From the human T2T-CHM13v2.0 reference genome, Homo sapiens: a stretch of DNA of 64,000 nt. The notes under the pieces are model-generated. The model was not told the origin of the DNA and ran no database searches. It saw nothing but the letters and a program-made list of their open reading frames with translations. The stretch is taken from the NCBI RefSeq assembly GCF_009914755.1, contig NC_060929.1; one strand, 5' to 3'. The translations under genes and the position numbers were made by a program. This document shows, piece after piece, positions 50,922 through 52,528 of this stretch; the stretch's first letter is position 1, and each line of letters starts with the position of its first letter.

Positions 50922-51316
50922 CTAGAGTGAGGAGGGAAAAAGAGGTGTAAGTACCTGAGTACAAACTGTCTAGTTCTTCAAACAATGAATGCTTAAGTGT
51001 GGAATATTTTCAAATGATCTCTAACAAAGCATAACTAAGGTTTCAGCACTCAAATTATTTTAGTTTCAGCTGCTACAAAAACAATTAGATAGAGCTATCT
51101 TTCTTGCTCTAATCTCAAATTCCACTGATTATTTTGGAACTTTAGAATAGAAATATTTAAATTCTACAGAAAAGAAGAAATATAAAAGAACAAACAAACC
51201 CACAAAAAGCAAAATAAAAAAGCAATGAAGAGTTCTTTAGCCCCCCGCTGACAAACTATTCTTAAAAAGATTATTCTTTCTGCAAAGTTTAAAAAGTGTT
51301 GAAAAATATTCTATAC

Positions 51317-51407
51317 ATCTTGCTCTTAGAACGTCTCCACTTTGACAGATCAGGTGACCCTCCTCATCATCCTCTATACTCCTGGATCTTTTCCTTCGGT
51401 GGCTCTT
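51317..51407 (-). CDS. CLK4: CLK4 exon 4 (91 nt), alternatively skipped exon
   Basis: CAG|AAGAGC...AGAT|GTATAG; KSHRRKRSRSIEDDEEGHLICQSGDVLRAR; weak donor; length not divisible by 3. Confidence 0.96.
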
Positions 51408-52528
51408 CTGGAACGGCAAGTGGGCAGCACCAAGATCGTCCAGCCAATCAATATATCAGAGTGAATTCAGGGCAGAATACGCAATTCATTCAGCGGGGAG
51501 ATATTCAGGCATTCAGATAAGCACCAGGCCACGAACAGTTGGCAGGAGCAATTTCAAATTCAGTCCCCAGAAATTCACAGGGCACAGTTTATGTTACAGA
51601 AGAAAAACATGGCAAGGAACAGATTTTCAGATAAGATACTTAAAGTGGCAATAGAAAAAAACAACACAATTGTCTCTTTAAAATACTGATTTAATTGAAG
51701 TCTGAAATTTAAAGAATGCAATGTCATGATTTACTTATCTCTTGCTATAAACAGCATATGCTGTGAATTGAGATGTCTAGTTTTTCAGAAAAATGTTTTA
51801 AAATGTCAAGACTATTTGAAATTATTCTAATTTAGCAATATTTTAAAATATACATGATTAAAATAAAAGGGGAAAATAAAGGCTAGTTAATTTCAATGTT
51901 CAATCTAATAAAAACTAGTTTTACTGAAGAAAACTTGGGGAGAAACTAATTCAAAGTTCACTGTTCAAGCAGGTGAAGATGTCTGAGTGTTAAAAAAAAA
52001 AAGGGGGGGGCAGACTTTTTGGATGTTTCCCATTCAGCACCCATTTTCACAACTTCAAAAGAATTCATTGCAGACAATGATGCACTGGACTATGGAACTA
52101 TGCTCTATGCAGGTTAGTAACATTCAGGTGTCCACCAGTGCAATATTTCACATTTATTTTCAAGTACCAGATAAAGGGTTTCTAAGAAAAAAAAAATGCT
52201 TAAGATGAAAGAAAAGATATGGGTGCATGATTTTTTCATAAGAATATGTTACAAATAAAAAAATAGTTTTATTATTAAAATCAATAAACTCATTATCTGG
52301 TCTGCAGAATATGAGGAAATGTGGGCAAATGAGGGCTAGCTAATAAATATACAGATCAGCTACAAGAATTTGGAGGTTTCCTTTAAGGATTTAAGTAATA
52401 TAAATACAATTATAATATATCCAAATAGTATTTTATATATATATATATAAAAAATTAGAAACTTATCAGCTCGTTAAGAGTACACACAAATAAAACTCCA
52501 CTCAAATTGAAAACAAAACCAATCATAC

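What the first reader, a model, noticed from the sequence alone, without database searches (positions are those of the whole stretch)
51241..51500. Complementary GC-rich boxes in introns 3 and 4 could loop out CLK4's regulated exon 4
Seen: in the pre-mRNA (minus strand), intron 3 carries 5'-CUCCCCGCUGA-3' (51500-51490) about 85 nt before the exon 4 acceptor. Intron 4 carries 5'-UCAGCGGGGGG-3' (51251-51241) about 65 nt after the weak donor AGAU|GUAUAG. They form an 11-bp helix (8 G-C, 2 A-U, 1 G.U), and the intron 4 box is a lone GC-rich patch in very AU-rich sequence. Established: CLK1/CLK4 exon 4 skipping and intron 3/4 retention autoregulate kinase output and respond to stress, temperature and CLK inhibition. 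Seen: skipping here gives exon3-MKSWTLWVKEPLAKL* (143 aa, no kinase domain). Inference: a long-range RNA duplex acts as a cis switch for skipping or detention, and could add an RNA-level temperature or helicase input.
Basis: partly seen in the sequence, partly recalled or inferred. Interest (0 to 1): 0.85.

Follow-up and report, generated by a model that had tools for sequence, protein, structure and literature searches.

The report
Complementary boxes flanking CLK4 exon 4
Two short GC-rich stretches on either side of the regulated exon 4 of the human kinase gene CLK4 can pair far better than chance, and the sister gene CLK1 has a weaker equivalent, so this is a testable but unproven candidate RNA loop that may help decide whether the exon is used.

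Summary
Box 1 (51500-51490, minus strand) and box 2 (51251-51241) form an 11-bp helix of -21.3 kcal/mol. It encloses exon 4 and both its splice sites in a 238-nt loop.

The helix is unusual. It is each box's best partner in the opposite intron. Exon 4 is the outlier among the 11 internal CLK4 exons. No other real genomic 390-nt stretch (0 of 372) pairs as well with box 1.

Box 1 lies in the ~380-nt block that is ~93% identical to the paralog CLK1. Box 2 lies just outside the block and is absent at the aligned CLK1 position. CLK1 intron 4 nevertheless has a different G-run, 62 nt further on, that gives that gene's best intron 3/intron 4 helix with the same box 1 (13 bp, 5 G.U, -17.8).

Against: G-runs are ordinary splicing enhancers, the predicted helix probability depends on folding context, no melting appears between 30 and 45 C, CLK2 and CLK3 lack it, and orthologs and duplex-capture data could not be examined.

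Verdict: a plausible facultative exon loop-out helix of a known kind (confidence 0.4). The thermometer idea is unsupported.

The parts
51490..51500 (-). Box 1, CUCCCCGCUGA. A C-rich element in intron 3, 82 nt upstream of the exon-4 acceptor.
   Evidence: Identical in CLK1. Its 3' half overlaps the 4th of five CUGAAU copies.
51241..51251 (-). Box 2, UCAGCGGGGGG. It holds the only G-run of intron 4 and starts at intron position 66.
   Evidence: Single copy in the genome. It lies in an alignment bin only 36% identical to CLK1.
51317..51407 (-). Exon 4 (91 nt), enclosed by the helix together with both its splice sites. The donor AGAU|GUAUAG is weak.
   Evidence: Hub annotation. 93.4% identical to CLK1 exon 4.
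51270..51650 (-). Block shared with CLK1: ~243 nt of intron 3, exon 4 and ~47 nt of intron 4. Most 25-column bins are 0.88-1.0 identical; two dip to 0.76-0.80.
   Evidence: 92% over 329 nt. The block is more conserved than coding exons 3, 5 and 6 (70%, 87%, 76%). It was described as highly conserved in PMC3187705 and PMC11346455 (passages).
51408..51638 (-). AG-dinucleotide exclusion zone of 231 nt upstream of exon 4. Box 1 lies inside it.
   Evidence: 231 nt here and 235 nt in CLK1, against 21-104 nt for the other 11 CLK4 introns. The CLK1 value of 235 nt and distant branch points at -224/-229 were mapped experimentally in PMC2991248 (Table 1).
51627..51632 (-). Positions of the two branch adenosines inferred for CLK4 (-220 and -225). 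They lie upstream of box 1, that is, outside the loop.
   Evidence: The 9-mers mapped as CLK1 branch sites (PMC2991248) are present unchanged in CLK4. Their use in CLK4 is inferred.
51564..51568 (-). Conserved GGGGA. This is the local alternative partner of box 1's UCCCC (51499-51495) in the consensus fold of the block.
   Evidence: RNAalifold on CLK4+CLK1 (columns 101-105 with 170-174). The pairs are invariant, so there is no covariation evidence.
52003..52010 (-). C8 run in intron 3. It is the second-best partner of box 2 (-18.7 kcal/mol), 593 nt upstream of the exon.

Best explanation
Box 1 and box 2 form a facultative long-range intronic helix. When it forms, it closes exon 4, its distant-branch-point 3' splice site and its weak 5' splice site into a 238-nt loop.

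The same helix buries intron 4's only G-run, which is a likely hnRNP H/F-type enhancer for the weak donor. It also buries a C-rich/CUGAAU element of the conserved intron-3 block. The expected net effect is weaker definition of exon 4, that is, more skipping or detention of introns 3 and 4.

CLK1 keeps a weaker, wobble-rich version that uses a G-run at another position. This suggests the pairing, not the box-2 sequence, is what is kept.

Shown: the complementarity, its rarity, its reciprocity and its recurrence in the paralog.
Inferred: that it forms in vivo, the direction of its effect, and the masking of protein sites.

It does not behave as a thermometer in the model.
For: 1. The 11-bp helix of -21.3 kcal/mol is the best of 225 perfect helices of 8 bp or more between intron 3 and intron 4; the next is -12.4.
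2. It is reciprocal. Box 1 is box 2's best site in intron 3 (-24.0, next -18.7). Box 2 is box 1's best site in intron 4 (-23.0, next -13.6).
3. It is rare: 3/300 and 1/300 shuffles, 0/1000, 0/372 real genomic stretches, and 7/609 AT-rich pseudo-exons. Exon 4 is the outlier among the 11 internal CLK4 exons (-21.3, next -15.1).
4. Even given a G-run, the flanks fit unusually well. Box 2 ranks 1 of 110 G-runs. With the G-run kept and its flanks redrawn, 8/5000 reach it.
5. Test in the paralog. Box 1 is identical in CLK1, and CLK1's best intron 3/intron 4 helix is again with box 1: UCUCCCCGCUGAA with UUUGGUGGGGGGG, 13 bp, -17.8. Chance figures for it are 12/300 and 20/300, 1/1000 and 175/5000, and 6/372 real stretches reaching or tying it, none of 158 with GC<0.40. 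In register, the CLK1 partner differs from box 2 at three inner positions, all G-C to G.U or U-A to U.G changes (read).
6. In local folding windows the CLK4 helix has mean probability 0.95, 0.79, 0.69, 0.22 and 0.41 for windows of 300, 350, 400, 500 and 600 nt.
7. Exons looped out by conserved complementary regions have lower inclusion (PMC8052449).
Against: 1. Box 2 is outside the CLK1/CLK4 conserved block. The aligned CLK1 site has only UCAGGGA (-9.3), and the two G-run neighbourhoods do not align.
2. Box 1 is no more conserved than the ~240 nt around it. It also overlaps a 5-fold repeated CUGAAU motif, so its conservation needs no helix.
3. G-runs downstream of weak donors are ordinary enhancers (recalled knowledge), which could explain box 2 on its own.
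4. Helix probability collapses in some contexts: 0.31 in 451 nt and 0.02 or less in 751 and 1607 nt. For CLK1 it is 0.27 or less, then about 0.
5. Box 1 has a conserved local partner.
6. The conserved region of mouse Clk1 alone, placed in a beta-globin minigene, reproduced retention and the TG003 response (PMC3187705). Whether that fragment holds the G-run is in Fig. S3, which I could not see.
7. CLK1 branch points were mapped in a construct without intron 4 (PMC2991248).
8. CLK2 and CLK3 exon 4 have no unusual flanking helix (60/200 and 39/200 shuffles).
9. Such complementary pairs are very common, about 75 per gene in the PCCR catalogue.
10. No CLK1 or CLK4 entry appears in the 3 held supplementary files of that paper, which are not the full catalogue.
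Confidence: 0.4

Rival explanations
1. The complementarity is incidental. Box 1 is conserved as part of the distant-branch-point/AG-free block, as spacer, polypyrimidine-like tracts or protein sites. Box 2 is a neutral or lineage-specific GC patch. A C-run and a G-run in AU-rich introns simply make the best available helix, and it has no effect on splicing.
For: - Box 2 is not in the paralog-conserved block.
- The whole block, not box 1 specifically, is conserved.
- About 8% of random pseudo-exon positions in the window have a flanking helix this strong (117/1500).
- The catalogue of conserved complementary pairs holds about 75 per gene.
- Global folds mostly do not contain it.
Against: - In AT-rich context it is rare: 7/609 and 0/158.
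- It is the reciprocal best partner.
- The pre-specified test in CLK1 was positive at 0.1-7%, depending on the null model.
Confidence: 0.3
2. Box 2 acts as a single-stranded G-run intronic splicing enhancer (hnRNP H/F type) that supports the weak exon-4 donor. Its fit to box 1 is a by-product and pairing plays no role.
For: - Both paralogs combine the same weak donor AGAU|GUAUAG with one long G-run in the first 140 nt of intron 4: G6 at +70 to +75 in CLK4 and G7 at about +134 to +140 in CLK1.
- Smaller G-triplets sit at the other paralog's position.
- G-run enhancers are established (recalled).
- G-rich elements read by hnRNPH1 control another temperature-sensitive exon, in RBM3 (bioRxiv 10.64898/2025.12.18.694734, passages).
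Against: - Given a G-run, the flanking fit to box 1 is still unusual: 8/5000 in CLK4 and 175/5000 in CLK1, and ranks 1 and tied 3-6 of 110.
- The CLK1 run lies further from the donor than I recall as typical for such enhancers.
- No binding data were available.
Confidence: 0.2

Closest known systems
Exon loop-outs by pairs of conserved complementary regions (PCCRs; Kalmykova et al. 2021, PMC8052449), including cases such as GPR126 named there
   Same: Two intronic arms of at least 10 nt with hybridisation energy of -15 kcal/mol or below surround a cassette exon. This helix would fall in their energy group II (-20 to -25). Looped-out exons have lower inclusion.
   Different: PCCRs require both arms to lie in conserved intronic regions. 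Here only box 1 is shown to be conserved, and only between paralogs. There is no covariation test and no RIC-seq or PARIS support. I could not check whether the pair is already in the full catalogue; only 3 supplementary files were held, and they contain no CLK1 or CLK4 entry.
BRD2/BRD3: paralogs that independently evolved RNA structures controlling unproductive splicing (PMC10789245; title and start of abstract seen in the listing only)
   Same: Paralogous genes each carry a complementary pair around an autoregulatory splicing event, without the arms being homologous.
   Different: That case has experimental support according to its abstract. Here the CLK1 helix is weak (5 G.U pairs, predicted probability 0.27 or less) and untested.
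Human exons with long AG exclusion zones and distant branch points (Corvelo et al. 2010, PMC2991248; Gooding et al. 2006, seen in reference lists only)
   Same: CLK4 exon 4 has a 231-nt AG-free zone, and it has the same 9-mers that were mapped as branch sites at -224 and -229 in CLK1.
   Different: That class describes the 3' splice-site architecture, not a helix across the exon. The helix lies between the branch points and the 3' splice site on one side and beyond the donor on the other.
Structure-gated G-rich elements read by hnRNPH1 in the temperature-sensitive RBM3 poison exon (bioRxiv 10.64898/2025.12.18.694734, passages)
   Same: Accessibility of a G-rich splicing element is set by RNA structure, in a gene of the temperature-responsive splicing network.
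   Different: There the structure is a G-quadruplex inside the exon. Here it is a Watson-Crick helix with a distant C-rich arm, and the model shows no temperature dependence.

Membership tests
Exon loop-out long-range RNA structure (PCCR-type) | Complementary arms of at least 10 nt with hybridisation energy of -15 kcal/mol or below | tested here: met
   11 bp, -21.3 kcal/mol. CLK1: 13 bp, -17.8.
Exon loop-out long-range RNA structure (PCCR-type) | The arms lie in the two introns flanking one exon | tested here: met
   Box 1 is 82 nt upstream and box 2 is 65 nt downstream of exon 4.
Exon loop-out long-range RNA structure (PCCR-type) | Both arms evolutionarily conserved | tested here: inconclusive
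   Box 1 is identical in CLK1. Box 2 is not conserved at the aligned CLK1 site, but a different G-run serves there. No ortholog genomes were available.
Exon loop-out long-range RNA structure (PCCR-type) | Compensatory (double-sided) substitutions | tested here: inconclusive
   Box 1 is invariant between the paralogs. The two partners differ by three one-sided, wobble-compatible changes in register. Two sequences give no statistical power.
Exon loop-out long-range RNA structure (PCCR-type) | Duplex seen in proximity-ligation or probing data; effect shown by single and compensatory mutants | not testable with these tools
   No such data were on hand.
RNA thermometer | The structure opens over the physiological temperature range | tested here: not met
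   Helix probability goes from 0.91 to 0.88 (341 nt) or from 0.11 to 0.64 (451 nt) between 30 and 45 C. The duplex goes from -22.7 to -20.7 kcal/mol between 32 and 39 C. This is a model only.
G-run intronic splicing enhancer (hnRNP H/F type) | A run of at least 3 G within about 100 nt downstream of a weak 5' splice site | tested here: met
   G6 lies at intron positions 71-76 after AGAU|GUAUAG. The definition itself is recalled.
G-run intronic splicing enhancer (hnRNP H/F type) | Bound by hnRNP H/F, with loss of the run weakening donor use | not testable with these tools
   No CLIP or mutational data were available.
Long-AGEZ / distant-branch-point exon class | Long AG-free zone upstream of the 3' splice site, with a branch point at its 5' end | tested here: met
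   The AGEZ is 231 nt. The CLK1 branch-site 9-mers are identical in CLK4 at -220 and -225. Branch-point mapping exists for CLK1 only (PMC2991248).

The most novel reading that the evidence does not exclude
Box 1's C-run is the hinge of a two-state RNA switch inside the conserved, AG-free stretch between the distant branch points and the exon-4 acceptor.

In one state it pairs locally with the conserved GGGGA (51568-51564). This is part of a fold that compacts the ~220 nt between branch point and AG and allows exon-4 splicing.

In the other state it pairs with the intron-4 G-run. That locks the exon and both splice sites in a loop and hides the G-run enhancer, giving detained introns or exon skipping.

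SR-protein phosphorylation state, hnRNP H/F or a helicase would set the balance. Each paralog would have renewed its own distal arm.
Probability: 0.1. Interest if true: 0.8.

Novelty: new member of a known kind. Interest (0 to 1): 0.45.

Why it matters
Skipping of CLK1/CLK4 exon 4 and detention of introns 3 and 4 set the output of the kinases that drive stress- and temperature-dependent SR-protein phosphorylation.

The flanking introns are known to be extremely conserved (PMC3187705, PMC11346455). The cis code inside them is only partly mapped: an exonic TRA2-beta enhancer, SRSF3 repression through intron 3, and distant branch points (PMC11571805, PMC2991248).

A defined 11-bp helix gives a cheap, decisive experiment (single and compensatory mutants, or a blocking oligo). 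It could explain why sequences well away from the splice sites matter.

If it proves to be chance, the useful residue is the anatomy: box 1 sits inside a 231-nt AG-free zone with five CUGAAU repeats.

Tried and rejected
1. RNA thermometer: no melting in the model.

2. A pairing suggested by RNAalifold between the intron-3 pyrimidine tract (about 51615-51595) and the purine-rich exon-4 enhancer. The intron-3 x exon-4 duplex energy of -47.1 was reached by 478/500 shuffles of the intron flank and 463/500 shuffles of the exon. This test allows very large loops and is crude.

3. Box 2 as part of a repeat family: the 191-nt stretch around it matches only itself in the genome.

4. A family-wide feature: CLK3 and CLK2 exon-4 flanks show nothing unusual (39/200 and 60/200).

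5. A known RNA family: Rfam gave only two sub-threshold snoRNA-like hits inside exon 4 (19.3 and 14.8 bits against gathering scores of 42 and 41).

6. Homology of the two G-run boxes: only T-rich low-complexity matches were found, and none joins the boxes.

7. Prior description. Six full-text searches listed no paper whose title or listed abstract start describes intron 3/intron 4 base pairing in CLK1 or CLK4. The passages I read in five listed papers mention none either. The main texts of the two RIC-seq papers hold no mention of CLK1 or CLK4 (occurrence counts).

8. The PCCR paper's 3 held supplementary files contain no CLK1 or CLK4 entry.

They may hold RIC-seq-supported pairs that bear on this finding.

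10. Fig. S3 of PMC3187705 (alignment and minigene limits) is a PDF that I could not see.

Full report
**What is there**

On the minus (CLK4 sense) strand, intron 3 (1121 nt) carries CUCCCCGCUGA at 51500-51490. This is 82 nt before the exon-4 acceptor. Intron 4 (395 nt) carries UCAGCGGGGGG at 51251-51241, starting 65 nt after the donor AGAU|GUAUAG.

The two boxes pair over 11 bp (8 G-C, 2 A-U, 1 G.U). The energy is -21.3 kcal/mol, or -24.9 with a short extension across a mismatch. The enclosed loop is 238 nt and holds the acceptor, exon 4 and the donor.

Both introns are AU-rich (GC 0.32 and 0.30). Box 2 is the only GC-rich patch in the first ~360 nt of intron 4.

**Is it more than chance?**

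- Among 225 perfect helices of 8 bp or more between the two introns, this one is the best by 9 kcal/mol.
- The best helix in dinucleotide shuffles reached it in 3 of 300 runs (both introns shuffled) and 1 of 300 (intron 4 only).
- The box-1 region against shuffled intron 4 reached it in 0 of 1000 runs.
- Shuffles destroy G-runs, so I also used real sequence. Of 374 non-overlapping 390-nt stretches of the window and the CLK1 locus (both strands), two reached -21.3. Both are box 1's own antisense strand, so 0 of the other 372 reached it.
- Of 1500 random pseudo-exon positions, 117 had a flanking helix this strong. Among the 609 with GC<0.40, 7 did.
- Of the 11 internal CLK4 exons, exon 4 is the outlier (-21.3; next -15.1).
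- Conditional on having a G-run, box 2 ranks 1 of 110 runs of 5 or more G for pairing with box 1. With the G6 kept and its flanks redrawn from real intron-4 words, 8 of 5000 reach it.
- The pairing is reciprocal best. Box 2's next partner is a C8 run at 52010-52003 (-18.7).

**The paralog as a test**

The window's own genome holds one other copy of this region, on contig 2. It is 92% identical over 329 nt, and exon matches identify it as CLK1.

The shared block runs from about 51650 to 51270. Most 25-column bins are 0.88-1.0 identical, and two dip to 0.76-0.80. This is higher than for coding exons 3, 5 and 6 (70%, 87%, 76%).

Box 1 is identical in CLK1. Box 2 falls in the first bin of random-level identity (0.36). 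The aligned CLK1 site has only UCAGGGA.

I then asked the pre-set question of whether CLK1's intron 4 offers box 1 a partner. It does. UUUGGUGGGGGGG at intron position 128 pairs with UCUCCCCGCUGAA over 13 bp (5 of them G.U) at -17.8. This is again the best helix between that gene's introns 3 and 4, and it stands 12 kcal/mol above the next site for box 1.

Chance figures for the CLK1 helix:
- 12/300 and 20/300 shuffles;
- 1/1000;
- 6 of 372 real stretches reach or tie it, none of 158 with GC<0.40;
- with the G-run kept and flanks redrawn, 175/5000;
- tied rank 3-6 of 110 G-runs.

In register, the CLK1 arm differs from box 2 at three inner positions, all wobble-compatible. The neighbourhoods of the two G-runs do not align. 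The arms are therefore either independent or displaced beyond recognition.

CLK2 and CLK3 exon 4 share the weak GUACA-type donor but have no unusual flanking helix.

**Thermodynamic context**

In sliding local windows the CLK4 helix has mean probability 0.95, 0.79, 0.69, 0.22 and 0.41 for windows of 300 to 600 nt. The CLK1 helix has 0.20, 0.26, 0.12 and 0.08.

In fixed larger contexts the CLK4 helix falls to 0.02 or less. There, box 2 pairs locally with a U-rich tract through G.U pairs.

A consensus fold of the shared block pairs box 1's UCCCC with a conserved GGGGA at 51568-51564. These pairs are invariant, so this is a possibility, not evidence.

Between 30 and 45 C the helix probability is flat or rises. 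The literature direction is the reverse: heat promotes exon-4 inclusion and intron removal, and cold promotes retention (PMC11346455, passages). The thermometer idea is thus unsupported, though that review explicitly calls RNA thermosensors in mammalian splicing an open possibility.

**Surroundings**

The conserved intron-3 stretch coincides with an AG-free zone of 231 nt (235 nt in CLK1). The other 11 CLK4 introns have 21-104 nt.

This feature is in print for CLK1. Corvelo et al. 2010 report a 235-nt AGEZ and map branch points at -224 and -229; CLK3 has a 207-nt zone and a branch point at -196 (PMC2991248, Table 1). The same 9-mers sit at -220 and -225 in CLK4.

Box 1 therefore lies between the distant branch points and the acceptor. 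The helix encloses the acceptor but not the branch points.

The zone also holds five CUGAAU copies, all identical in CLK1. The window-wide count is 56 per 128 kb of both strands. The fourth copy overlaps box 1's GCUGA, so box 1's conservation does not need the helix.

**Known regulation**

- A fragment of mouse Clk1 comprising the conserved region was enough for retention and the TG003 response in a beta-globin minigene (PMC3187705). Its limits are in a figure I could not see.
- Exon 4 holds a TRA2-beta enhancer, and SRSF3 represses through intron 3 (PMC11571805).
- About twenty dCas13 guides around CLK1 exon 4 were tested. The passages I read report effects only for the exon and for the 3' splice-site/branch region.

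**Comparison and verdict**

The pair has the form of an exon loop-out by complementary intronic regions. This is a well-described kind, with 916,360 conserved pairs catalogued (about 75 per gene) and lower inclusion of looped-out exons (PMC8052449). By energy it would be group II there.

Conservation of the distal arm, covariation and duplex-capture support are untested. I could not see the full catalogue.

I rate the options as follows:
- a facultative helix that weakens exon-4 definition and masks the G-run: 0.4;
- incidental complementarity: 0.3;
- a G-run enhancer with no structural role: 0.2.

No paper describing this pairing surfaced in six full-text searches.

Noticed in passing
window 51408-51638 (-): The 231-nt AG-dinucleotide exclusion zone upstream of CLK4 exon 4 matches the CLK1/CLK4 conserved block almost exactly. 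The other 11 CLK4 introns have 21-104 nt. This feature is already published for CLK1 (235 nt, branch points at -224/-229; PMC2991248). The same branch-site 9-mers sit at -220 and -225 in CLK4 (51627, 51632).
   Followed up: yes
window 51563, 51516, 51508, 51493, 51470 (-; starts of 6-mers): There are five copies of CUGAAU within 100 nt of the conserved intron-3 block, all identical in CLK1. The whole window holds 56 copies on both strands. The binding factor or role is unknown. The fourth copy overlaps box 1.
   Followed up: partly
window 51270-51650 (-) versus L003 (CLK1): The intronic flanks of exon 4 are more alike between CLK4 and CLK1 (~93%) than coding exons 3, 5 and 6 (70%, 87%, 76%). 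The high conservation itself is in print (PMC3187705, PMC11346455).
   Followed up: yes
L007 (contig 15, CLK3) and L008 (contig 1, CLK2), exon-4 borders: All four CLK paralogs end exon 4 with ...AU|GUA(U/C)A, a weak donor lacking G at -1 and +5. CLK3 has a G6 run 9 nt upstream of its exon-4 acceptor. CLK2's upstream flank is very C-rich.
   Followed up: partly
L009 (contig 7:23725424-23725510, -): An exon-4-like peptide match lies inside a 515-aa open frame without introns. It is probably a processed CLK2-like copy; this naming is from recall and was not examined.
   Followed up: no
window 51236-51253 (-): If intron 4 is retained, the reading frame runs on through box 2 and stops at the UAA directly after it (...SLSAGG*, stop at codon 185). 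This is probably coincidence.
   Followed up: no
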